64,000 nt of DNA from Patescibacteria group bacterium. GTDB lineage: Bacteria; Patescibacteriota; Patescibacteriia; Buchananbacterales; GWA2-38-13. Position numbers and translations under genes: made by a program. Under the pieces are notes generated by a model that saw only the letters and a list, made by a program, of their open reading frames with translations, searched no databases and was not told the DNA's origin. Below are positions 23,933 to 40,853 of the stretch, one piece after another; position 1 is the first letter of the stretch, and the number at the start of each line of letters is the position of its first letter. The stretch is from contig JAQTQO010000001.1 of assembly GCA_028712155.1 (NCBI GenBank), forward strand, positions 1,501 through 65,500, given 5' to 3'.

Positions 23933-25222
23933 TTAGGGAACAAGCGTTCGGACGGAAAACGTTTGCAGTTCTTGGGCAAGGAGCGTTTCCAGGCTCGGGT
24001 TCGGCGGGAGAAGAATATGCAATACGTGGATGCGTTCTTCGCCCGGTGTTGCTCCCGATAAGTGCTCAAGCACCATCAGCAGGTGGTAACCGTCGACGGA
24101 ACGGACCGGCGGAGAAATTTCGTTGACGCCCAAGGCGCTGGCTGCGGCAAACAGCGCCGGGTCGAGGTCGTTGGCGCCGCGAAAGCCGAGATCACCGTCG
24201 GATGAAACCCGCTCGTCGCGGTTGTAGCGCGCCACGGCATCCGCAAAGGTCATCTCTTTGGCGAGAATTTTATTCCGGATGTCATTGGCTTGCTGCTCGG
24301 CGTTCCGCCAGCTGGTCGGGTCGGTCAAAACTTGGGTTTGCACGGCTTGCCGGAGCAAGTAGGGTTCCAACAGCCGTCGGCGGAAGTCTTCAATACTCCA
24401 GCCGGGAAAATTGTTGGCAAGTTCCGCAGCTAACCTTTCCGGGCTGCCCAACTCCTGGATAAGCGCGTCGAGTTGCCGTTGCGATTCTGCCGGAGTGACG
24501 GTGATGTTGAGGCGGCTGGCAAGGCGACGAAATGCCACGCGCTGCGTGAAATTCGCGATAACCTTCCGATGGATATCGGCGGCCGTGAGGTTCTGATGCT
24601 GTGCAGCTGCTGATCTTGCCAGGAGCTCGGATTCATTCAGGAAATCGGACAGCCGCAACGTTTCATCACCGGCGTATGCAGCCGGTAACGGGAATATGCG
24701 CGCAATACTTTTGACGATCGGATGCGACCAGCCGTAACGGTAGGTGCCAACTAAAAATACCAGGGTAGCGGTAAATAACCCCGCACTCACCAGCAGAAAT
24801 GCCATCGCGTAAACAGGCCGCGGCGTGCGCTTGGGGCGGATCCGTGGTTCCGGCAGCAGCCCGTTGATTTTTCCGTCGGGCTTTTTTGCAACCTCCGGAA
24901 TTTTTGTAACGCGGGGCGGTGATTTTCTCCGCACCGTCGCCGTCGGGCGCGGCAGGAGGGCTGGGTTTGACGCCGCAATGCGGTCCGGCTGTTTTGTCGC
25001 GGTCGGGCTTTGCTTCTTTTCCTTTACCGGAAGTGTCGGCTCAAAAGTCTTTGTGCGCGTAGCGGTACGTTTTTTCCGTACGACGCGCTTCGGGCTTTCC
25101 CCGGCCGGAGGCGGGGACGACCCGCGCTCTTTTTCCATCTCCAGCCAGCGAAGGACTTCGCGGCGCATGCTCGCAAGTTCTTCATCGCTGAATGTCCCCT
25201 TTGGCGGCGTAGGTTCCGTCAT
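23933..25222 (-). CDS. Membrane-anchored PpiC/parvulin-type peptidyl-prolyl isomerase (PrsA/SurA-like foldase) with K/R/P-rich N-terminal tail
   Basis: The C-terminal parvulin motif is …SDGDLGFRGANDLDPALF…GYHLLMVLEH…. There is a single TM (AMAFLLVSAGLFTATLVFLV). The start is uncertain (25222 or 25279). Confidence 0.65.
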   Translation of the reverse strand: MTEPTPPKGTFSDEELASMRREVLRWLEMEKERGSSPPPAGESPKRVVRKKRTATRTKTFEPTLPVKEKKQSPTATKQPDRIAASNPALLPRPTATVRRKSPPRVTKIPEVAKKPDGKINGLLPEPRIRPKRTPRPVYAMAFLLVSAGLFTATLVFLVGTYRYGWSHPIVKSIARIFPLPAAYAGDETLRLSDFLNESELLARSAAAQHQNLTAADIHRKVIANFTQRVAFRRLASRLNITVTPAESQRQLDALIQELGSPERLAAELANNFPGWSIEDFRRRLLEPYLLRQAVQTQVLTDPTSWRNAEQQANDIRNKILAKEMTFADAVARYNRDERVSSDGDLGFRGANDLDPALFAAASALGVNEISPPVRSVDGYHLLMVLEHLSGATPGEERIHVLHILLPPNPSLETLLAQELQTFSVRTLVP

Positions 25223-25293
25223 AGTTTTGATCCGGTGTGGTTGGTGATCAATGCGATCGAAACGTTCTCCCTGCTGCACGAACCGTACATATA

Positions 25294-32962: not shown

Positions 32963-33601
32963 GTGCTTGATTTGCGATTCATTTATTTTGTGCCGCATTA
33001 CCCGCGCTCAATTTTAGAGCTCATCGCGCAATTTACGCGGTTGCCCGGCATCGGGCCCAAGACCGCCGAGCGGTTGGCGTTGTATCTGGCCAGCCGTCCG
33101 CCGGCTGATGCCGATGCGTTGGCGCGGGCGGCGGCGGCGCTGCACGCGGAACTGGTCAAATGTAAAATCTGCGGCGATTACGCCGAAACCGATCCCTGCG
33201 GAATTTGCCGCGACCAGTCGCGCGACCCGGCGATTTTATGCGTCGTGGCAAAGCCCCAGGACCTGCTCGCGCTGGAGCGCACCGGAGAATTCCGCGGACG
33301 CTACCACGTGCTCGGCGGTACGGCCAACCCTCTCGAGGGGGTGACCCTGGAACATCTCAATGTGTCGGCCTTGCGCGACCGCATCAAACGCGACTCCGTG
33401 CGGGAGGTGATTTTGGCGTTTAACCCCGATGTCGCCGGCGAGCATACGGCGCTGGCGGTGCGCAATGTCCTCTCGGCGCTCGCGGTGTCGCCGCCGTTGA
33501 AAATCACCAAGCTCGCGCGCGGTCTGCCGCTGGGTTCCGATGTCGAGTATGCCGACGAGGTGACCTTGGGGCATGCGCTGCGCGGCCGCCGCCCGGTGTA
33601 G
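32963..33601 (+). CDS. recR: Recombination protein RecR
   Basis: HhH (LPGIGPKTAERLAL), a C4 zinc finger (CKICGDYAETDPCGICRD) and a Toprim domain. An alternative GTG start is possible near 32990. Confidence 0.85.
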   Translation: MLDLRFIYFVPHYPRSILELIAQFTRLPGIGPKTAERLALYLASRPPADADALARAAAALHAELVKCKICGDYAETDPCGICRDQSRDPAILCVVAKPQDLLALERTGEFRGRYHVLGGTANPLEGVTLEHLNVSALRDRIKRDSVREVILAFNPDVAGEHTALAVRNVLSALAVSPPLKITKLARGLPLGSDVEYADEVTLGHALRGRRPV

Positions 33602-33607
33602 ATCGGT

Positions 33608-35326
33608 ATGGAACACGCTGCCTCCCGCCCGCCGTGGTACCGGCAAAACGGAAATCTCCGTTGGTGGCTGGTGGCGCTGGTCATCGTGATCACGGCCGCC
33701 GGCGTGCGTCTGGTAAAACTCAACGACGACGAGGTGCGCACCGATGAGGGAAACTATGCCGTGCGCGCGATCGGGTGGAACGATTTCATGTTCTCCACGA
33801 CACTGGGGTCGGGTTGGGTCTGGCATCAGCAGGATGAGGTATTGCCGGCCTGGACACAGCTGAGTTTCAACGATCATCCGCCGCTCCACTTCGCGGCCAT
33901 CTGGTTGTCCACGCATTTGTTCGGCATCAATCTGTTTGCCGTCCGTTTGCCGTCGGCGCTCTACGGAGTCGGTGCCGTGCTTTTAGTCATGCTGATATTG
34001 CGGCGCTGGCGGCAACCGCAAGGAGCGCTGGTCGCCGGTGCAATCCTGGCGTTGCTGCCCTGGCACATTTTTATTTCCCGCCAGGCGATCCAGGAGTCCG
34101 GGGTTATTTTTTGGATTCTGGCGGCGTTGCTGGCTGCCGTCTACGTGGGAAATGACGCCCTGCCGAGGCGCCCACGCGCATTGGGGTGGGCAATGCTGGG
34201 CGCAACGCTGGGTTTGGGCCTGCTCACCAAGTACTCCGCAGCTATTGTGCTGGCGCCGCTCACGGTCATGGCAGTGCAGGGGCGCTGGTGGCGGCATCCC
34301 GAATTTTGGCTGGCGCCGCTAACGGTTTTGATTCTATTGAGTCCGGTGGTGTATTACAATCGGCGGGTGTATATCGAGCGCGGGCATTTCGACTTACAGC
34401 TGAGCCGTTTGCTCAAACAAGATACCCGCGGTGACTGGCCGGCAAGCAACCAGGGCATCTGGCAGGGCGATTGGCGCCAGGCGGGTAATTTTTTGCAGCA
34501 GCAGCTGGTCGGTTTGTCGTGGCCGGCCGCCGTACTGTTGCTGTGGGGAATCATTGCGCCGCGGCGCCGCCAGAACCTGCCGTCCGGGGCCGTGGCGGCC
34601 AGCTACGGCGCCGCTGCGATCGGGGCGATCCTTGCGCTCATTACGTTGAATGACTACGGGCGCGGTTCAATTCTCTTGCCTTTTTACGCCCTCGCAATAG
34701 GAATTTCTGCCCAAACGCTTCGCCCGTTCCTTTTGCGGACTGTTGCCGCAGTCACCGTCGGGGTGCTGGTTTTGGCGGCGTTCCCGACGTTTGCCAGTGA
34801 TACCGCGGTGCAATATCTGGTGAAAACTTTCCCTGCCAGTCCGGTCGGTTTTGCCAATTGGGAAGCGTGGCGGGCACAGAATATCCCGACGTCATTTGCC
34901 CCGGTACATTACGCCTCGTTGAAAAGTTGGTTGTACGGTCAGATTGAACGGACGGGAAACGGTGAGGCGCTGGTTGTCTATGATGATCGGATCGCATGGT
35001 TTCCGGCCAACTGGTATTTTTTTCGCTACGGTTTTTACAGCCAGAAAACCGTTTTCATGAACTCCGGCATTTTTTCATTCTTGTCAACGCAGCATGTGCT
35101 TGATCATCTGCGCGGCCGAAACATCCGGTTCATTGAAGTTGGCCAGGCGGCGGCCGACAGTAAAAATGTTTTGAACGAGCAAACCGCATTGACCGATAAA
35201 TTTTTCCGTACGCTCCGTACCAGCCAGCGGGTTAACCCCGTTATGGTCACCGGAGAAAACGGAGCAGAGATGCTGCGCGTGTGGGACGTCTACTGGGATC
35301 CGGCGGTTGCCTTTCCGGGCGGGTAG
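33608..35326 (+). CDS. Glycosyltransferase family 39 (ArnT/PMT-like polyprenol-phosphate-sugar dependent transferase)
   Basis: The 572-aa polytopic protein has an N-terminal DE…HPPL pattern typical of GT-C/GT39. Confidence 0.65.
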   Translation: MEHAASRPPWYRQNGNLRWWLVALVIVITAAGVRLVKLNDDEVRTDEGNYAVRAIGWNDFMFSTTLGSGWVWHQQDEVLPAWTQLSFNDHPPLHFAAIWLSTHLFGINLFAVRLPSALYGVGAVLLVMLILRRWRQPQGALVAGAILALLPWHIFISRQAIQESGVIFWILAALLAAVYVGNDALPRRPRALGWAMLGATLGLGLLTKYSAAIVLAPLTVMAVQGRWWRHPEFWLAPLTVLILLSPVVYYNRRVYIERGHFDLQLSRLLKQDTRGDWPASNQGIWQGDWRQAGNFLQQQLVGLSWPAAVLLLWGIIAPRRRQNLPSGAVAASYGAAAIGAILALITLNDYGRGSILLPFYALAIGISAQTLRPFLLRTVAAVTVGVLVLAAFPTFASDTAVQYLVKTFPASPVGFANWEAWRAQNIPTSFAPVHYASLKSWLYGQIERTGNGEALVVYDDRIAWFPANWYFFRYGFYSQKTVFMNSGIFSFLSTQHVLDHLRGRNIRFIEVGQAAADSKNVLNEQTALTDKFFRTLRTSQRVNPVMVTGENGAEMLRVWDVYWDPAVAFPGG

Positions 35327-35401: not shown

Positions 35402-37096
35402 GTGCACCGTGCAACATCGGGAAATAGCATGACCACGCACACGAAAGTTCGCCTTGGAGTACTGGGGATTTTCATCGTAACTGCGGTTGCGGTGCTTTTT
35501 GATTTCCCGCGTTTAGGCACCGGTTTAACGTTGCCGCAGTGGTTTTTGAAACCTTTTCGTCTCGGTCTTGATCTGCGCGGCGGAGTGCAACTGGTCTACA
35601 GCGCCGACGTCAGCGCGATTCCGCCGGGTGAGGAGTCTAGCGCCCTGGATGGCGTGCGGGACGTGATTGAGCGCCGCGTGAATATCTTTGGCGTATCCGA
35701 GCCACTGGTGCAGACTTCGCGCAGCAGTTCGGACTGGCGCGTGATCGTTGAGCTGCCGGGGGTGACCGATGTTAAGGCGGCCGTGGACCTCATCAATGAA
35801 ACCCCGCGACTCGAGTTCAAGGAAGTTGATACCAATCCCACAACGACCCCGACGCTGTCGGAAGCGGAAATCAAGGCAAAAGCTGAGACCGTACTCAAAG
35901 ACGCCCTGAAACCGAAAGCGGATTTTGCCGCATTGGCAAAGGAGTATTCCGACGACGCCGGTAGCAAGGACCAGGGCGGTGATTTGGGTTGGAAGAAAGC
36001 CAGCGATTTGGTGCCGGAATTTTCGGCTGCGTGTTTCAAGGACGGAAAAGTCGGCGCTGTGTATCCCAAGCTGGTAAAAAGCGAATTCGGATATCACATT
36101 ATCAAAGTGGTGGAACGGCGGGGTACGGGCGACAGCCTTGAGGCGCATTGTCAGCATATCCTCCTGTCCACCGTGCCGCCCCCCGCACCGACGGGCATTG
36201 TCTGGAAGAACACAGGACTGAGCGGGTCGCAGCTCAAGCGGGCAACGGTATCGTTCGATCCGCAAACGGGCGAACCGCAGGTGAGCTTGGTGTTCAATAC
36301 GGAAGGCGGTAAACTGTTCGGCGATATAACGCGCCGCAATGTCGGCAAGCAGGTGGCCATTTTCCTCGACGGAGCGATCATCTCCAGCCCGGTCGTGCGC
36401 GAAGCGATTACCAGCGGCAGCGCGGTCATCAGCGGCAATTTTTCCATCGCCGAAGCCAAGCAACTCAAAGAGCGGCTCAACGCGGGAGCGCTGCCGGTGC
36501 CCATCACCATCATTTCGCAGCAAACCGTGGGTGCGACGCTCGGACAAGCAGCGGTCATCAAGAGTTTCCAGGCGTCCATCTTCGCGGCCATCCTCGTCGG
36601 GCTGTTCATGATTTTGATCTACCGTTGGCCCGGTCTGATCGCGACTCTCAGCCTGGCGGTCTACGGGCTGGTGATTTTGGCGCTGTTCAAGCTCATTCCC
36701 GTCACGCTGACGCTCGCCGGTATCTCCGGTTTCATCCTCGGTATGGGTATGGCGGTGGACGCCAACGTGCTGATCTATGAGCGCCTCAAGGAGGAGCTGC
36801 GCGGCGGCGGGACGTTGTCGCACGCGATAACGCTCAGCTACCGACGGGCCTGGCCGTCGATTCGCGACGGTAATCTGACGACGCTGCTCACGAGCGTCAT
36901 CCTGATGTGGTTTTCCACCAGCGTCATCAAAGGCTTTGCCATCACCCTGGCGATCGGCTTGCTGGTCAACTTCTTTTCCGCTATGGTGGTTTCCCATCTC
37001 CTGATGGCAATGCTGCAGCCGCGCCGGCACCCGGAACGATGGCTGTGGTGGTACTGCGTCTCACCCCGAGAAATTCGGACGGTAAAAGGCAAGTAA
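35402..37096 (+). CDS. secD: Protein translocase subunit SecD with an embedded parvulin (PpiC) PPIase domain in the periplasmic head region
   Basis: SecD P1 and TM core are present. A parvulin motif (…DQGGDLGWKKASDLVPEFSAACFKDGKVGAVYPKLVKSEFGYHIIKV…) is inserted between the P1-head segments. Confidence 0.75.
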   Translation: MHRATSGNSMTTHTKVRLGVLGIFIVTAVAVLFDFPRLGTGLTLPQWFLKPFRLGLDLRGGVQLVYSADVSAIPPGEESSALDGVRDVIERRVNIFGVSEPLVQTSRSSSDWRVIVELPGVTDVKAAVDLINETPRLEFKEVDTNPTTTPTLSEAEIKAKAETVLKDALKPKADFAALAKEYSDDAGSKDQGGDLGWKKASDLVPEFSAACFKDGKVGAVYPKLVKSEFGYHIIKVVERRGTGDSLEAHCQHILLSTVPPPAPTGIVWKNTGLSGSQLKRATVSFDPQTGEPQVSLVFNTEGGKLFGDITRRNVGKQVAIFLDGAIISSPVVREAITSGSAVISGNFSIAEAKQLKERLNAGALPVPITIISQQTVGATLGQAAVIKSFQASIFAAILVGLFMILIYRWPGLIATLSLAVYGLVILALFKLIPVTLTLAGISGFILGMGMAVDANVLIYERLKEELRGGGTLSHAITLSYRRAWPSIRDGNLTTLLTSVILMWFSTSVIKGFAITLAIGLLVNFFSAMVVSHLLMAMLQPRRHPERWLWWYCVSPREIRTVKGK

Positions 37097-37115: not shown

Positions 37116-38018
37116 ATGTTCACGGTTATTCCGCATCGCAAGTGGTGGTACATATTCTCAACGCTTTTGGCGGTGGGGAGCATTATCGTGCTATTCACCT
37201 GGGGGCTGAAGCCGGGAATTGATTTTACCGGCGGGAGTTTACTCGAACTCGATTATCCGACCAGCACCCCGTCGCTGATCGATATCCGCAACACCGTGCA
37301 GCAGTCGACCGGGCAGACCGTCTCCACGGTCCAGTCGGTCGGCGAACGCGGGGTGGTCGTCCGTTTTCCCCACATCACAGAAGCGGCGCACCAGAAATTA
37401 CTGACGGATCTCAAGCAGATCGGGCCGGATGTCATCGAGCAGCGGTTTGATGCCATTGGTCCGACCATCGGAGCGGAACTGAAGCAAAAAACCGCGTGGG
37501 CGGTCGGATTGGCGGTGCTGGGGATGATCATCTACATCACGATCGCATTCTACAAGGTTACCCGGCCCGTGCCGTCGTGGCAGTACGGCAGCATCGCGAT
37601 CTTCTCACTGCTGCATGATCTGTTGATTACCGCCGGAGCATTCGCCGTCATCAGCCGTTTCTACGGCATGGAGGTGAACGCCTCTTTTGTCGCGGCCATG
37701 CTGACGGTGTTCGGGTATTCGGTGAACGATACCATCATTATTTTTGACCGGATCCGCGACAACCTGCAGCATCACCCGAACCCAAACTTTGCCGAACTGG
37801 TGGACACCAGTATCCGGCAGACGCTGTACCGCTCCACCAATACCGTTCTCACGGTGCTTTTGGCGCTCTTTGCCGTGCTGCTGTTCGGCGGGGAATCCAT
37901 CCGTGATTTCGCCGTCACGCTCATCGTCGGCATTACGCTGGGAACCTACTCGTCAATTTTTCTCGCCAGTCCGCTGCTGGTGGAAGCGCAGCGCATCCGG
38001 TTCGGCAAAAAGCGGTAG
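37116..38018 (+). CDS. secF: Protein translocase subunit SecF
   Basis: The 300-aa protein has the SecF fold pattern and six TM segments. Confidence 0.85.
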   Translation: MFTVIPHRKWWYIFSTLLAVGSIIVLFTWGLKPGIDFTGGSLLELDYPTSTPSLIDIRNTVQQSTGQTVSTVQSVGERGVVVRFPHITEAAHQKLLTDLKQIGPDVIEQRFDAIGPTIGAELKQKTAWAVGLAVLGMIIYITIAFYKVTRPVPSWQYGSIAIFSLLHDLLITAGAFAVISRFYGMEVNASFVAAMLTVFGYSVNDTIIIFDRIRDNLQHHPNPNFAELVDTSIRQTLYRSTNTVLTVLLALFAVLLFGGESIRDFAVTLIVGITLGTYSSIFLASPLLVEAQRIRFGKKR

Positions 38019-38169: not shown

Positions 38170-38198
38170 TTGACTATTCTTTGACTTTATGCTATATT
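38170..38198 (+). promoter_or_regulatory. Sigma70-like promoter in the AT-rich region upstream of the 38251 operon
   Basis: TTGACT at 38170-75, a 17-nt spacer, then TATATT at 38193-98. Confidence 0.45.
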
Positions 38199-38250: not shown

Positions 38251-39450
38251 ATGGCTCAACCAAAGTCAATTTTGGACAAAATCATCCAAAGTAAAAATAT
38301 TGAGGAAGCCAGTCAGTTCAACCCAACGGAAATCATTTCCGATCTGGTGAAAGAGCTGAATGCAAAGGAGCGCGAAGTACTGTCGCGCCGTTTTGGGCTG
38401 AATGGAGAGCCATTGCAGACGCTGGAGGAAATCGGCAAGAATTTTGAAATCACTCGCGAGCGCATCCGGCAAATTCAGGGTGCCGCGGTGCGTAAGGTTC
38501 GCGTGGCGGCCGAAGCGAAGCAGAGGCTGGCGGTGCTTGAGCACACGGTCACGCGACTTTTGCACGAACACGGCGGAATTGCCGAAGCGGAAACGTTTTA
38601 CCGGAATTTACTTTCCCATCTCGACGAATCCGCAACGCATCGTCAGGCGGCCATTTTCATCATCACCGAGCTTTTGCCGACGCATGTTGAACGGGTCCGG
38701 CAGAATGATCAATTCTATCACGGTTGGAAGCACCGGGTGCTGGATTTGGCGTTTGTTCAGCAAACGATTGACACGTTGCGCGGACTCATTGAGGGTCAGC
38801 AACGGTCGCTGAAATTTGACGACCTGATCACCTCGTTTAAGGGCCATGATTTCTACCTTGCCAACCGCGAACGTTTTGTTCCGGCCGGCATCACGATGGT
38901 GGAAAATGACGAGGAGGCGATCAACCGGGTATTGCTTTCGTATCTGACGATCAGCCGGCAGATCGAGCAGAATATCCTGGGTGAATGGGGGCTGAGTGAA
39001 TGGCCGACGATTCGTCCCCGCCGCATGGGCGACAAGATTTACCTCGTACTCAAACAGGGCGGTAAACCCCTGCATTTTACGGAAATCACCGAAGAAATTA
39101 ACCGGGCGAGCTTTGATCACAAGGTGGCGTACCCTGCGACGATCCACAATGAGCTCATTTTGGATGAGCGGTACGTCTTGGTCGGGCGTGGCATTTACGC
39201 TCTCCGCGAATGGGGCTACGAGCCAGGAACGGTTGGAGATGTTATTATGAAAGTGCTCACCGAGGCCGGTAAGCCGTTGACGCGCGACGAGATCGTCAAC
39301 GAAGTCAGCCGGCGCCGGTTTGTCCGGAAAAGTACGATTTACCTGGCGCTGACCAATCGCGAACATTTTGCGAAAATCGGCGACCGTTATCAGCTCAAGC
39401 CCGAAAATCAAGCGGTCGGCGTGCGCGCCGGTGCGAAAAAAACAAACTAA
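38251..39450 (+). CDS. Sigma-70 region-4-like HTH domain protein (no sigma region 2) with large C-terminal domain of unknown function
   Basis: N-terminus …EREVLSRRFGLNGEPLQTLEEIGKNFEITRERIRQIQGAAVRKV… (sigma70_r4 pattern). The remaining 300 aa are uncharacterized. Confidence 0.65.
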   Translation: MAQPKSILDKIIQSKNIEEASQFNPTEIISDLVKELNAKEREVLSRRFGLNGEPLQTLEEIGKNFEITRERIRQIQGAAVRKVRVAAEAKQRLAVLEHTVTRLLHEHGGIAEAETFYRNLLSHLDESATHRQAAIFIITELLPTHVERVRQNDQFYHGWKHRVLDLAFVQQTIDTLRGLIEGQQRSLKFDDLITSFKGHDFYLANRERFVPAGITMVENDEEAINRVLLSYLTISRQIEQNILGEWGLSEWPTIRPRRMGDKIYLVLKQGGKPLHFTEITEEINRASFDHKVAYPATIHNELILDERYVLVGRGIYALREWGYEPGTVGDVIMKVLTEAGKPLTRDEIVNEVSRRRFVRKSTIYLALTNREHFAKIGDRYQLKPENQAVGVRAGAKKTN

Positions 39451-39506
39451 ATACTTCCCAATCCGTCCGGTTTTTGGCGTGCGGGCGCGGTGCGGGGAGT
39501 GGCGTT

Positions 39507-40853
39507 ATGGGTTTCAATCTCAATGAATTTGCCGATGTAGCAGCGCAAAATCCATTTGTGCTGATCGGGTGGTTTCTCGCCCACGGTGGGTGGGTTTTTT
39601 TGTTGCCGTGGGCGGTGTGGGTGGCGACGGTGATGTGGCTGGAATGGCGGCGGGGGATTTACGATTCCCAGCGCGAATTTGTCGTACTGGCCGTTGATAT
39701 TCCGCGCACCAACGAGCAGACGCCGCGGGCTATCGAGCAGTTGTTCTCGCATTTTTCCGGCATGCACAACGATCCGCAAAAAGAGGATAAGTGGATCGCC
39801 GGCGAAATGGAAGAAAGCATTGGTCTTGAGATCGTGAGCTTCGGCGGCTATATTCAATTTCTCATCCACCTGAACGTCAAATTCCGCGATCTGGTCGAGG
39901 GGGCGATCTACGCGCAGTATCCGGAGGCGGAAATCGCCGAGGTGGAGGATTACGCGATGCGTTTCAAGGGCATCAAATTTCCTAATGATCAGTTTGACGT
40001 CTGGGGCGGCGAGCTGCGCATGACCAATAAACAATACTACCCGATTAAAACCTACCGTGAGTTCGAGGATATGGTTTCCGGCGAATTCAAGGACCCGATG
40101 GCGAGCATCCTGGAAATTTTCAGCAAGATGACGCCGGATGAGCAGGCGTGGTATCAAATTGTTATCACTCCGGCCAACAATAATTGGGGCGAGCCCGGAA
40201 TGGAACTGGTGTACAAACTCATCGGCGCTAAAGTATCAAAAAAGAAAAAAATTTGGGAGAGCCTTATCGACGCGCCGTTGAACATTATCAGCATGTTCGG
40301 GGACATCATTTCCGGCACGTGGGGCGTAGCCGCCCAGGAGCAACCGGCGACGCTCATCCCGATGAGCCAGATGTTGCACCTCCCGCCCGGCAAGCGCACG
40401 GTCGTTGAAGCAGTGGAGCGGAAAATTTCCAAAATCGGTTTTCATACCCGCATCCGGTTGGTTTACATCGCGCGGAAACATGCGTTCAATAAAGCGACGC
40501 GTTCCAGCGCGCTGTTCGGCGCGATCAAGCAATTCAATACGCTGGATATGAACGGGTTCAAGCCAAACAAGAAAAAATTCACCAAAGTGTATGGCCTGTT
40601 CAAAAAACCGCGCATTAATATCCGAAAGAATAAGGTCATGCGCTGGTATCGGATGCGTGCGCGGCAGTACGAACCGGGGTACTATGGGCCGATTTTGAAT
40701 ATCGAAGAATTGGCCGGCTTATGGCATTTCCCGCTGATGACGGTAAAGGTGCCCACGCTCCAGCGGACGGAAGCCAAGCGCGCGGAGCCGCCGGTAACCT
40801 TGCCCATCGCGCCATACCGTGAAGGTGAGCCGCCGGTCGACCAACTTGTATGA
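39507..40853 (+). CDS. Bitopic membrane protein of unknown function, translationally coupled to the downstream ATPase
   Basis: Start at ATG 39507, with GGGGAG 7 nt upstream. The N-terminus has two hydrophobic helices, followed by a large soluble domain with a Lys-rich C-terminus. The stop overlaps the next ATG (ATGA at 40850). Confidence 0.6.
   Translation: MGFNLNEFADVAAQNPFVLIGWFLAHGGWVFLLPWAVWVATVMWLEWRRGIYDSQREFVVLAVDIPRTNEQTPRAIEQLFSHFSGMHNDPQKEDKWIAGEMEESIGLEIVSFGGYIQFLIHLNVKFRDLVEGAIYAQYPEAEIAEVEDYAMRFKGIKFPNDQFDVWGGELRMTNKQYYPIKTYREFEDMVSGEFKDPMASILEIFSKMTPDEQAWYQIVITPANNNWGEPGMELVYKLIGAKVSKKKKIWESLIDAPLNIISMFGDIISGTWGVAAQEQPATLIPMSQMLHLPPGKRTVVEAVERKISKIGFHTRIRLVYIARKHAFNKATRSSALFGAIKQFNTLDMNGFKPNKKKFTKVYGLFKKPRINIRKNKVMRWYRMRARQYEPGYYGPILNIEELAGLWHFPLMTVKVPTLQRTEAKRAEPPVTLPIAPYREGEPPVDQLV

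What the first reader, a model, noticed from the sequence alone, without database searches (positions are those of the whole stretch)
35402..37096. SecD carrying an embedded parvulin-type PPIase domain
A complete PpiC/parvulin signature (…DQGGDLGWKK…F..GYHIIKV…) sits inside the periplasmic P1 head region of SecD, between …RLEFKEV and the resumption of SecD sequence (…VSLVFNTEGG…). A separate membrane-anchored parvulin gene also exists at 23933-25222. Fusing a folding catalyst into the SecDF post-translocation chaperone would couple translocation directly to prolyl isomerization. I do not recognise this as a standard SecD architecture.
Basis: partly seen in the sequence, partly recalled or inferred. 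Interest (0 to 1): 0.55.

Follow-up and report, generated by a model that had tools for sequence, protein, structure and literature searches.

The report
SecD with built-in, rearranged prolyl isomerase
In this candidate-phyla-radiation bacterium and many relatives, the protein-export helper SecD carries a folding-enzyme (parvulin) domain spliced into its outward-facing part, a real and apparently unreported design that joins two export-and-folding components that work as separate proteins in model bacteria.

Summary
ORF 35402-37096 (+) is a bona fide SecD (TIGR01129 389 bits, cutoff 244), followed by secF. A parvulin PPIase domain (Pfam Rotamase_3, E 2.8e-22, aa 150-239) sits between the P1-base strand (RLEFKEV) and the P1 head. 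It is not a mis-assembly: all 120 best database relatives (50-68% identity, independent assemblies) and 31 GTDB species genomes, all Patescibacteria-like by synteny, share it. The domain looks catalytically intact: D185, S/T227, H232 and H252 are 57-58/58 conserved.

New detail: the domain is circularly permuted. The canonical first strand (xHILL, H252) follows the last strand (GYH232II) as a hairpin. The permuted HMM match, the SurA P2 alignment and a confident AlphaFold2 model (pLDDT 89.6) support this.

Relatives also include two-parvulin SecDs, and lipoproteins made of the P1+parvulin module alone, one of which is encoded right after secDF.

Best explanation: a translocon-tethered foldase/chaperone, a cis version of the PrsA, SurA, PpiD or Mpn444 partnerships with Sec. 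Function is inferred, not shown. I found no paper describing the fusion or a permuted parvulin. Verdict: new variant of a known kind, moderate-to-good interest.

The parts
35402..37096 (+). secD ORF (564 aa from GTG 35402; GenBank start is ATG 35429, 555 aa). Residue numbers in this report count from 35402.
   Evidence: TIGR01129 389.4 bits, cutoff 244.4; T. thermophilus SecDF 3aqp, E 4e-79.
35435..35503 (+). TM1 helix (aa 12-34), preceding the extracytoplasmic P1 domain.
   Evidence: AF2 model helix 12-34. The topology follows from homology to solved SecDF structures.
35651..35830 (+). N-terminal half of the P1 base (Pfam SecD_1st, aa 84-143), ending in strand RLEFKEV (aa 136-142).
   Evidence: E 5.6e-17; AF2 strand 137-142; aligns to T. 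thermophilus SecDF residues 33 to about 125.
35831..36202 (+). Whole insertion relative to canonical SecD (aa 144-267): N-linker 144-153, parvulin 154-256, C-linker 257-267.
   Evidence: T. thermophilus SecDF has about 35 residues here (about 125-159) against about 130 in this protein. Linker columns are variable and gappy in homologues.
35861..36121 (+). Parvulin alpha1-alpha2-alpha3-beta2-alpha4-(beta3)-beta4 (aa 154-240). Carries D185 (35954-35956), L195, L203, F207, S227 (36080-36082), G230 and H232 (36095-36097).
   Evidence: Pfam Rotamase_3/Rotamase; AF2 pLDDT 88-98 with secondary structure H154-169, H175-182, H186-189, E194-199, H205-214, E230-240; residue conservation; coordinates verified.
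36140..36169 (+). Permuted parvulin strand (aa 247-256, EAHCQHILLS) carrying invariant H252 (36155-36157). It is the equivalent of canonical strand beta1 but is placed after beta4.
   Evidence: H252 58/58, I253 and L254 at 90% or more. In-silico permutation gives an end-to-end PF00639 match. It aligns to SurA P2 beta1 'VHARHILL'. AF2 strand 247-256 lies six residues after strand 230-240.
36197..36499 (+). P1 head subdomain (Pfam SecDF_P1_head, aa 266-366).
   Evidence: E 2.2e-32; aligns to T. thermophilus SecDF from residue 160.
36503..37018 (+). SecD membrane domain TM2-TM6 (aa 368-539), including invariant D453 (36758-36760) in the AVDANV motif.
   Evidence: Pfam SecD_SecF_C; AF2 helices 382-431, 438-467, 472-504, 507-537; D453 invariant and aligned with 'AVDGNV' of T. 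thermophilus SecDF.
37116..38018 (+). secF (300 aa), 19 nt downstream of secD; partner subunit in the same operon.
   Evidence: TIGR00966 287.2 bits against cutoff 160; Pfam SecD_SecF_C E 3.6e-59. The secD-secF pair is conserved in every fusion locus long enough to show the downstream gene.
23933..25279 (-). Separate membrane-anchored parvulin protein (448 aa longest ORF; GenBank 429 aa from ATG 25222). It is context only, not part of SecD, but has the same permuted order (…DGYHLLMV…EERIHVLHILLP…).
   Evidence: PF00639 E 1.3e-12, aa 325-403, profile 16-95; collinear 34% identity to the SecD insert including the trailing His strand, E 7e-8.

Best explanation
This is the SecD subunit of a functional SecDF proton-driven export motor from a Patescibacteria (CPR) bacterium. 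A complete, catalytically competent-looking parvulin-type peptidyl-prolyl isomerase domain has been inserted into its extracytoplasmic P1 domain. The insertion sits at the crossover from the P1 base (after strand RLEFKEV) to the mobile P1 head.

The inserted domain is circularly permuted. It runs alpha1…beta4 (GYH232) and then supplies the canonical first strand (H252-I-L-L) as a hairpin after beta4. Its entry and exit points are therefore the two ends of what is a continuous beta1-alpha1 loop in ordinary parvulins.

Proposed mechanism (inferred): as a Sec substrate emerges from SecYEG on the outer face of the membrane it is captured by the SecD P1 head. The tethered parvulin, held next to that capture site, binds the unfolded chain and catalyses cis/trans isomerisation of Xaa-Pro bonds and/or acts as a holdase. 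Release from the translocon and the first folding steps would then happen on one polypeptide. This would be a cis-encoded equivalent of the trans partnerships of PrsA, PpiD, SurA or Mpn444 with the Sec machinery.

Shown here: the architecture, its conservation, the conserved active-site residues, the permuted order and the intact SecD motor motifs. Inferred: PPIase activity, action on nascent exported chains, and any coupling to head movement.
For: - Architecture: Pfam and NCBIfam domain order. PDB sequence matches split into SecDF (3aqp, 5xan, 5mg3) for the flanks and SurA P2/PrsA for aa 149-242.
- Structure: AF2 model with mean pLDDT 89.6, and 88-98 over the insert. The model matches solved SecDF structures, none of which has the insert. 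The isolated region matches parvulin PPIases, e.g. SurA domain II with TM 0.73.
- Not an artefact: all 120 best homologues (50-68% identity) carry Rotamase plus SecD domains. 31 of the 80 best GTDB loci are full fusions with conserved secD-secF synteny. 47 of the 150 best 50%-identity cluster representatives contain SecD flanks.
- Catalytic competence: D185 57/58, S/T227 58/58, H232 58/58, H252 58/58, and pocket residues L195, F/M/L203 and F207 are conserved.
- Permutation: native PF00639 match covers profile 13-96, the permuted sequence covers 1-96 with a higher score. 'AHCQHILL' aligns with SurA P2 'VHARHILL'. There is a hairpin strand after beta4 in two AF2 models.
- Motor intact: D453 is invariant and aligned with T. 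thermophilus 'AVDGNV'; secF is adjacent.
- The module behaves as a functional unit: free-standing lipoproteins consist of P1 base + permuted parvulin + P1 head, and one is encoded directly after secD-secF.
- Precedent for the partnership in trans: SurA parvulin domains are predicted to dock on the SecDF P1 head and SurA binds the holo-translocon (PMC9987972). The parvulin lipoprotein Mpn444 cross-links to SecD (bioRxiv 10.1101/2024.09.05.611430). The P1 domain is proposed to bind and pull emerging chains (PMC6028853).
Against: - No biochemical data exist; PPIase activity is inferred from conserved residues only.
- From my own knowledge: several extracytoplasmic parvulin domains (SurA P1, PpiD) are catalytically inactive, and PrsA's isomerase activity is reported to be dispensable in vivo. 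A chaperone or structural role is therefore equally compatible.
- In the two-parvulin homologues one unit has lost its active-site residues, which shows the fold is also kept for non-catalytic reasons.
- The position of the parvulin active site relative to the P1 head cleft could not be examined.
- The permutation rests on sequence logic and predicted secondary structure, not on measured strand pairing.
- The genome also has a separate membrane-anchored parvulin, so the SecD insert is not the only candidate foldase.
Confidence: 0.7

Rival explanations
1. The inserted parvulin fold is a non-catalytic substrate-binding (holdase/chaperone) module. It enlarges the polypeptide-binding surface of the SecD P1 head, as SurA P1 or the PpiD parvulin domain do, and prolyl isomerisation is irrelevant.
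For: In double-parvulin SecD homologues the outer unit has lost the beta4 His and the pocket residues yet is retained, so the fold has value without catalysis. From my own knowledge: SurA P1 and the PpiD parvulin domains are inactive, and PrsA PPIase activity is not essential. The free-standing P1+parvulin lipoproteins resemble chaperone-type foldases.
Against: In the single-domain form found in this window, all four hydrogen-bond-network residues and the proline pocket are conserved at 57-58 of 58 across sequences only about 50-68% identical overall. In double forms one unit keeps the full set in nearly every case. Such conservation is hard to explain without catalysis or at least specific Pro-peptide binding.
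Confidence: 0.2
2. The insert is mainly a mechanical or regulatory element. Placed at the base-head crossover, it modulates the swing of the P1 head between its known conformations, or it docks SecDF to another envelope component. It does not act on substrates.
For: The insertion site is at the junction between P1 base and P1 head. Movement of the head is considered central to SecDF function (PMC6028853). This segment also differs greatly in length among canonical SecDs: it is about 35 aa in Thermus, and E. coli SecD reaches the P1 head only at about residue 321.
Against: This does not explain the strict conservation of parvulin active-site and pocket residues. It also does not explain why the same P1+parvulin module is kept in lipoproteins that lack the membrane motor entirely.
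Confidence: 0.07
3. The architecture is an artefact: an assembly chimera or gene-calling fusion of a parvulin gene with secD.
For: The window comes from a metagenome-assembled genome, and read coverage could not be inspected.
Against: It is a single uninterrupted ORF with no compositional break. The same in-frame insert at the same site occurs in all 120 best homologues, from four independent data sources, in 31 GTDB species genomes and in 47 cluster representatives. AF2 folds the whole protein confidently.
Confidence: 0.01

Closest known systems
Canonical SecDF (Thermus thermophilus 3AQP/5YHF, Deinococcus radiodurans 5XAM/5XAN, E. coli SecD in 5MG3)
   Same: It has the same family-level HMM matches, TM1-P1-TM2-6 layout, P1 base and P1 head subdomains, a conserved TM Asp (D453) and an adjacent secF. 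It presumably has the same proton-driven role in late translocation.
   Different: About 95 extra residues forming a parvulin domain lie between the last strand of the N-terminal P1 base and the first strand of the P1 head. No solved SecDF has a PPIase domain.
PrsA (Bacillus/Staphylococcus/Listeria lipoprotein foldase; 4WO7, 5TVL, 6VJ6)
   Same: Both are membrane-tethered, extracytoplasmic parvulins acting (here, presumed to act) on proteins leaving the Sec channel in a single-membrane envelope. The parvulin is likewise a domain inserted into a host scaffold. The sequences are similar (PrsA NCBIfam hits E 1e-14 to 1e-16; PDB hits).
   Different: In PrsA the host scaffold is the SurA/trigger-factor-like NC chaperone domain and the anchor is a lipid. 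Here the scaffold is the SecD P1 domain and the anchor is the SecD membrane motor. The PrsA parvulin has canonical strand order; this one is permuted.
SurA / PpiD association with the Sec holo-translocon (E. coli)
   Same: Parvulin-containing chaperones positioned at the periplasmic exit of the translocon. SurA's parvulin domains are predicted to contact the SecDF P1 head (PMC9987972). PpiD-YfgM associates with SecYEG (PMC9643414, abstract). The best PDB sequence match of the insert is SurA P2.
   Different: Those are separate proteins that bind transiently and serve outer-membrane-protein traffic in diderms. Here the parvulin is covalently part of SecD, and there is no SurA_N-type chaperone domain.
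Mycoplasma pneumoniae Mpn444/Mpn436 parvulin lipoproteins cross-linked to SecD
   Same: In a minimal, wall-less or monoderm-type bacterium, a surface parvulin PPIase with chaperone features sits physically next to SecD and is proposed to fold chains emerging from SecYEG (bioRxiv 10.1101/2024.09.05.611430).
   Different: Mpn444 is a separate trimeric lipoprotein with propeller and chaperone-like domains. The association is non-covalent and was inferred from cross-links.

Membership tests
SecD (protein translocase subunit SecD, TIGR01129; RND superfamily) | Full-length match to the curated SecD model above its cutoff | tested here: met
   TIGR01129 389.4 bits against cutoff 244.4, aa 54-535 covering profile 1-397. 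Pfam Sec_GG, SecD_1st, SecDF_P1_head and SecD_SecF_C are all above gathering score.
SecD (protein translocase subunit SecD, TIGR01129; RND superfamily) | TM1, then a large extracytoplasmic P1 domain (base + head), then a five-helix membrane bundle | tested here: met
   AF2 model: helix 12-34, mixed alpha/beta region 61-376, helices 382-537. Foldseek top hits are SecDF structures, E about 1e-23. The model is a prediction; topology was not measured.
SecD (protein translocase subunit SecD, TIGR01129; RND superfamily) | Conserved membrane-embedded Asp of the proton pathway (T. thermophilus D340, residue number from my memory) | tested here: met
   D453 is invariant in 58 sequences and aligned in 'AVDANV' against 'AVDGNV' of 3aqp.
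SecD (protein translocase subunit SecD, TIGR01129; RND superfamily) | Partner SecF encoded adjacently or fused | tested here: met
   secF at 37116-38018, 19 nt downstream; TIGR00966 287 bits against cutoff 160. This is conserved in related loci.
SecD (protein translocase subunit SecD, TIGR01129; RND superfamily) | Proton-motive-force-dependent stimulation of protein export | not testable with these tools
   Requires in vivo or in vitro translocation assays.
Parvulin / PpiC-type PPIase (Pfam PF00639, PF13616) | Significant match to the family HMM | tested here: met
   Rotamase_3 E 2.8e-22 (79.9 bits, cutoff 22.5); Rotamase E 2.4e-18 (67.4 bits, cutoff 21.7).
Parvulin / PpiC-type PPIase (Pfam PF00639, PF13616) | Canonical beta1-alpha1-alpha2-alpha3-beta2-alpha4-beta3-beta4 order along the chain | tested here: not met
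   All elements are present, but beta1 (H252 strand) follows beta4. The native match lacks profile positions 1-12, while the in-silico permuted sequence matches 1-96 of 97. The SurA P2 alignment includes beta1 only after permutation. AF2 secondary-structure order agrees. It is therefore a circular permutant of the family fold, not a canonical member by topology.
Parvulin / PpiC-type PPIase (Pfam PF00639, PF13616) | Active-site hydrogen-bond network (Cys/Asp-His-His-Thr/Ser; Pin1 C113-H59-H157-T152 and Par14 D74-H42-H123-T118, from my own knowledge) | tested here: met
   D185, H252, H232 and S227 are present and 57-58 of 58 conserved. The correspondence to beta1 and beta4 His is shown by the SurA P2 alignment. 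The spatial adjacency of the residues was not measured.
Parvulin / PpiC-type PPIase (Pfam PF00639, PF13616) | Hydrophobic proline-binding pocket (Pin1 L122, M130, F134 equivalents, from my own knowledge) | tested here: met
   L195 (52/58 L), position 203 F/M/L (54/58) and F207 (55/58).
Parvulin / PpiC-type PPIase (Pfam PF00639, PF13616) | Measured peptidyl-prolyl cis/trans isomerase activity | not testable with these tools
   Needs a protease-coupled or refolding assay on the purified domain.
PrsA / SurA / PpiD-type periplasmic chaperone-PPIases | Parvulin domain(s) inserted in a SurA_N / trigger-factor-like N+C chaperone module (PF09312, PF13624, PF13623) | tested here: not met
   No such domain is detected in the SecD protein at E up to 0.01; the host scaffold is the SecD P1 domain. 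It may work like these proteins but is not a member of this group.

The most novel reading that the evidence does not exclude
In a large part of the candidate phyla radiation, the SecD P1 + permuted-parvulin module is the principal extracytoplasmic foldase. It works as an energy-coupled device: the proton-driven swing of the P1 head hands the emerging chain to, or pulls it through, the tethered isomerase. Translocation, prolyl isomerisation and release would then be mechanically linked on one polypeptide. The module would also represent a previously undescribed circularly permuted topology of the parvulin fold. That topology has been duplicated (nested two-parvulin SecDs) and released from the motor as secDF-linked lipoproteins.
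Probability: 0.25. Interest if true: 0.75.

Novelty: new variant of a known kind. Interest (0 to 1): 0.58.

Why it matters
- **Evidence for an inferred partnership.** How proteins are received and folded as they leave the Sec channel is still argued from indirect evidence: low-resolution EM and AlphaFold docking for SurA-SecDF, cross-links for Mpn444-SecD, and co-purification for PpiD-YfgM. A natural, widely conserved covalent fusion of a parvulin to the SecD P1 domain is 'Rosetta-stone' evidence that the SecDF periplasmic domain and parvulin foldases work on the same substrates at the same place.
- **A tractable object for structural and biochemical work.** The partnership sits on a single polypeptide.
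- **A new parvulin topology.** It adds a circularly permuted version of the parvulin fold, with apparent evolutionary relatives in the same family: single permuted, nested double and free-standing lipoprotein forms.
- **CPR biology.** It points to how organisms with very small genomes economise on envelope proteostasis.
- **Annotation.** These proteins are currently labelled only 'protein translocase subunit SecD', which hides the foldase domain.

Tried and rejected
- **Mis-assembly or chimera:** rejected. There is no composition break, it is a single ORF, and the insert is conserved across independent assemblies.
- **Long antisense ORFs over secD** (e.g. 35525..37030 minus strand, 501 aa): treated as shadow ORFs of a 57-61% GC gene. 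Similar minus-strand shadows appear in the high-GC related loci.
- **Non-CPR labels on some fusion loci** (Gammaproteobacteria, Lysobacteraceae, Binatia, Hyphomicrobiales): not accepted as evidence for spread outside Patescibacteria. Their SecD is 41-54% identical to the window's, and their secD-secF-downstream synteny matches the window.
- **Family-size estimate:** the count of 621 proteins at E <= 1e-30 from the junction profile is not a family size, because multi-parvulin proteins inflate it. Only 47 of the 150 listed hits were verified as SecD-linked.
- **My first regex for domain boundaries** in related loci failed (the insert_len values are meaningless). Only the motif order from that call was used, and it was redone with an HMM.
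- **Homologue search with the standalone parvulin** returned only itself and remote SurA-like proteins. There is no family-level test of whether its permutation is conserved.
- **Primary SecDF papers not held:** Tsukazaki 2011 and Ficici 2017. The published residue ranges of head, base and hinge could not be cited, so Pfam domain boundaries were used instead.
- **Literature:** nine searches. Those aimed at the fusion or at a permuted parvulin found no description of either; one search looked only for P1 head/base definitions.
Full report
**1. The observation**

GenBank holds the same protein as MDD5109615.1, 'protein translocase subunit SecD [Patescibacteria group bacterium]'. It is 555 aa long and starts at the ATG at 35429. 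My residue numbers count from 35402.

Pfam gives this order:

| Domain | Residues | Support |
|---|---|---|
| Sec_GG | 48-69 | E 3.5e-5 |
| SecD_1st | 84-143 | E 5.6e-17 |
| Rotamase_3 | 150-239 | E 2.8e-22, 79.9 bits (cutoff 22.5) |
| Rotamase PF00639 | 151-237 | E 2.4e-18 |
| SecDF_P1_head | 266-366 | E 2.2e-32 |
| SecD_SecF_C | 368-539 | E 1.8e-15 |

NCBIfam's SecD equivalog model TIGR01129 scores 389 bits against a cutoff of 244. The next ORF (37116..38018, 19 nt downstream) is SecF, with TIGR00966 at 287 bits against a cutoff of 160.

Against the PDB, the flanks match SecDF of Thermus (E 4e-79), Deinococcus and E. coli. Residues 149-242 match SurA's second parvulin domain (E 4e-21) and PrsA.

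**2. Not an artefact**

GC content shows no break across the insert. All 120 best database relatives (50-68% identity; sources NCBI, JGI, ENA and Logan) carry PF00639 and PF13616 together with the SecD domains. Those with names are Buchananbacteria, Kerfeldbacteria, Uhrbacteria, Falkowbacteria, Parcubacteria or 'Patescibacteria group'.

Of these, 31 encode full SecD-parvulin fusions at 41-54% identity to the window protein. The named ones add Moranbacteria and Magasanikbacteria.

Several fusion loci are labelled Gammaproteobacteria, Lysobacteraceae, Binatia or Hyphomicrobiales. They nevertheless have the same secD-secF gene order, mostly followed by a homologue of window gene 38251-39450 or 39474-40853, so I regard them as mislabelled CPR bins.

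In the 1.84-billion-protein representative library, 47 of the 150 best hits to the junction profile contain SecD flanks. I saw no fusion outside Patescibacteria-like sequences. All these searches are capped, however, so absence elsewhere is not shown.

**3. Where the insert sits**

Thermus SecDF aligns to window residues 52 to about 145 (Thermus 33 to about 125), and again from residue 273 (Thermus 160). Roughly 35 Thermus residues are therefore replaced by about 130 residues here.

The AlphaFold2 model has mean pLDDT 89.6, pTM 0.70, and pLDDT 88-98 over the insert. It shows the following elements in order:

- TM1 (12-34)
- the P1-base strand 137-142 (RLEFKEV)
- a variable linker (143-153)
- the parvulin (154-256)
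- a Pro-rich linker (257-267)
- the first P1-head strand (268-274)

The insert therefore lies at the base-to-head crossover of P1, on the outer face of the membrane. It is not inside the head proper.

The model's best structural matches are the solved SecDF structures, and none of them has such a domain. The SecD motor looks intact. D453, in the AVDANV motif that aligns with Thermus AVDGNV, is invariant in 58 sequences.

**4. The parvulin is complete, looks active, and is circularly permuted**

Across 58 homologues the key residues are conserved as follows:

| Residue | Conservation | Role |
|---|---|---|
| D185 | 57/58 | network |
| S/T227 | 58/58 | network |
| H232 | 58/58 | network (beta4 His) |
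| H252 | 58/58 | network (beta1 His) |
| L195 | 52/58 | proline pocket |
| 203 (F/M/L) | 54/58 | proline pocket |
| F207 | 55/58 | proline pocket |

From my own knowledge, the first four correspond to the parvulin hydrogen-bond network (Par14 D74-H42-H123-T118; Pin1 C113-H59-H157-T152), and the other three to the proline pocket.

The order along the chain is unusual. The Pfam match starts only at profile position 12-13, so the first strand is missing at the N-terminal side. The conserved 'xHILL' strand that normally opens the domain instead follows the 'GYHII' strand that normally closes it. Four lines of evidence support a circular permutation:

- Moving aa 243-262 in front of aa 144-242 in silico turns the PF00639 match from profile 13-96 (71.4 bits) into 1-96 of 97 (73.4 bits). 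For Rotamase_3 the match changes from 30-115 (84.0 bits) to 15-115 (88.3 bits).
- The permuted sequence aligns end to end with E. coli SurA P2. 'AHCQHILL' pairs with 'VHARHILL', and 'FGYHIIKV' pairs with 'FGWHLIEL'.
- Two AF2 models place a confident strand (247-256) six residues after beta4 (230-240). In a four-stranded parvulin sheet where beta4 already pairs with beta3, a hairpin partner of beta4 can only occupy the beta1 slot. This last step is inference.
- No His-bearing strand exists upstream of helix alpha1. That segment is coil, variable and gappy.

Foldseek on the isolated region recovers parvulin PPIases: 8hm3/8hm4 (E about 1e-7), SurA PPIase domain II (TM 0.73 normalised to the target) and PrsA. 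Strand pairing itself could not be measured, because coordinates are not exposed and permutation-aware aligners were unavailable.

**5. Relatives that illuminate the module**

(a) *Two size classes of SecD.* Single-parvulin forms (about 550-620 aa, like the window) always show beta4-His followed by beta1-His. Double forms (about 680-750 aa) have two Rotamase stretches.

An HMM of the permuted unit shows a consistent pattern in double forms:

- The first unit has usually lost the beta4 His and the pocket residues.
- The strand after it keeps His in 32 of the 33 forms where it could be aligned.
- The second unit keeps the full catalytic set.
- The trailing strand is usually R-I-L, or cannot be aligned.

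The two histidines must share one active site. This co-retention pattern therefore indicates a canonical-order active domain nested inside a degenerate, permuted-type outer domain. A few double forms (P0089, P0095) keep all four histidines. Whether the single permuted form arose from such duplicates, or the reverse, is open.

(b) *Free-standing modules.* P0177, P0212 and P0246 start with lipoprotein signal peptides (lipoboxes LLSGC, LTTGC, AVTGC), and P0191 has a TM anchor. Each then encodes a P1-base-like segment, the permuted parvulin and a P1 head, and ends there. They are 33-36% identical to the window SecD over aa 150-365.

P0246 is encoded immediately downstream of a parvulin-containing secD and secF, on the same strand. 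So the P1+parvulin unit is also used without the membrane motor, but still linked to secDF.

(c) *A single-chain SecDF.* P0142 (905 aa) is a fused SecDF with the same insert.

(d) *The window's other parvulin.* The gene at 23933..25279 (minus strand; GenBank 429 aa) has one TM segment and a parvulin that aligns collinearly with the SecD insert, including the trailing 'HVLHILL' strand (34% identity, E 7e-8). It has the same permuted order. A homologue search for it returned nothing useful.

**6. How it most likely works**

What is established: SecDF's P1 domain is thought to bind the emerging chain and move it away from the channel, driven by the proton gradient (review PMC6028853).

Parvulin foldases are found at, or proposed to dock on, this machinery in trans:

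- SurA binds the holo-translocon, and its parvulin domains are predicted to contact the SecDF P1 head (PMC9987972).
- The active parvulin lipoprotein Mpn444 cross-links to SecD in Mycoplasma (bioRxiv 10.1101/2024.09.05.611430).
- PpiD-YfgM associates with SecYEG (PMC9643414, abstract).

From my own knowledge, PrsA is the membrane-tethered parvulin foldase of monoderm bacteria, and CPR bacteria are generally considered monoderm.

My inference is that in this lineage the partnership has been made covalent. The parvulin, tethered next to the substrate-capturing head, binds newly exported unfolded chains and isomerises Xaa-Pro bonds and/or holds them until release. Conservation of the catalytic residues favours real catalysis or at least specific Pro-peptide binding. 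A purely chaperone role or a mechanical role cannot be excluded (see the rival explanations). No step of the function has been shown experimentally.

**7. Comparison and novelty**

The protein is a member of the SecD family; every testable defining feature is met. The insert belongs to the parvulin superfamily by sequence and active site but fails the canonical-topology criterion, so it is a circular permutant. It is not a PrsA/SurA/PpiD-type protein, because no SurA_N-like chaperone module is present, although it probably works like one.

The literature searches aimed at the fusion or at a permuted parvulin found no description of a SecD-parvulin fusion or of a permuted parvulin. The library lacks most subscription journals, and domain databases will already list the architecture implicitly: the Pfam hits are precomputed in the protein collection, while the proteins are annotated only as 'SecD'.

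I therefore rate it a new variant of a known kind. Both parts are well known, but their covalent combination, the permuted topology and the derived forms appear to be undescribed.

**8. Neighbourhood**

- Upstream: recR (32963-33601) and a PMT_2-type glycosyltransferase (33608-35326).
- Downstream of secF: a 232-nt AT-rich gap with a promoter-like site (38170-38198).
- Next: a Sigma70_r4 + HARE-HTH protein (38251-39450).
- Next: a protein with no Pfam hit (39474-40853).

One or other of the last two genes follows secDF in many related genomes.

**9. Verdict**

Interest is moderate to good (0.58). It is not revolutionary, because domain insertions are common and the partnership was already suspected. 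It is nevertheless a clean natural fusion that supports a debated functional link, and it comes with an unreported fold permutation and a set of derived forms worth a focused study.

Noticed in passing
window 23933-25279 (minus strand): The separate membrane-anchored parvulin (GenBank 429 aa from ATG 25222, one TM segment, low-complexity Pro/Lys-rich N-terminus) has the same non-canonical strand order as the SecD insert: …DGYHLLMV…EERIHVLHILLP, ending about 20 aa later. It aligns collinearly with the insert (34% identity, E 7e-8). A homologue search found only itself and remote SurA-like proteins.
   Followed up: partly
L081 6001-7056 (GCA_054021355.1, JBPMTB010000006.1); proteins P0177, P0191, P0212, P0246: Free-standing lipoproteins or TM-anchored proteins of 351-375 aa consisting of a SecD-P1-base-like segment, the permuted parvulin and a SecDF P1 head, with no SecD membrane domain. 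P0246 is encoded directly after a parvulin-containing secD and secF on the same strand. This looks like a PrsA-like foldase derived from SecD's own periplasmic domain.
   Followed up: partly
L013, L015, L016, L018, L019, L024, L025, L028, L034, L040, L048, L058, L066, L069, L077, L080; proteins P0051, P0086, P0089, P0095, P0122 and others: SecD homologues of about 680-750 aa carry two parvulin units at the same site. The first unit has usually lost its beta4 His and pocket. The strand after it and the second unit keep the catalytic set, and the trailing strand is usually R-I-L. This suggests an active canonical-order parvulin nested inside a degenerate permuted one. P0089 and P0095 keep all four His.
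   Followed up: partly
protein P0142 (905 aa): A single-chain SecDF fusion that also carries the parvulin insert (SecD_1st, Rotamase, P1 head, two SecD_SecF_C stretches, two Sec_GG motifs).
   Followed up: no
L003, L006, L008, L013, L015, L016, L021, L028, L040, L058, L066, L069, L077: Public MAG records titled Gammaproteobacteria, Lysobacteraceae, Binatia or Hyphomicrobiales encode CPR-type SecD-parvulin fusions (41-54% identity to the window). Where enough flanking sequence is held, they also share the window's secD-secF gene order, in several cases followed by the same downstream gene. The taxonomic labels are probably wrong.
   Followed up: partly
window 39474-40853 (+): A 459-aa ORF with no Pfam hit has homologues (35-44% identity) placed just downstream of secDF in many related Patescibacteria loci (e.g. 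L015, L016, L018, L025, L069). It is a conserved protein of unknown function syntenic with secDF.
   Followed up: no
window 38251-39450 (+): A 399-aa protein combining a Sigma-70 region 4 helix-turn-helix (aa 34-84) with a HARE-HTH domain (aa 263-321). Homologues follow secDF in several related loci (L002 52% identity; also L004, L006, L011, L066). It is preceded by an AT-rich gap with a promoter-like site at 38170-38198.
   Followed up: no
window 35402 versus 35429: The longest ORF starts at GTG 35402, but GenBank and the homologue alignments (BLAST query starts at residue 9-10) favour ATG 35429 as the true secD start.
   Followed up: yes
window 35525-37030 (minus strand) and other antisense ORFs over secD: A 501-aa antisense ORF and several shorter ones overlap secD. 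Similar antisense ORFs occur in high-GC related loci. They look like shadow ORFs of a GC-rich gene, not genes.
   Followed up: partly
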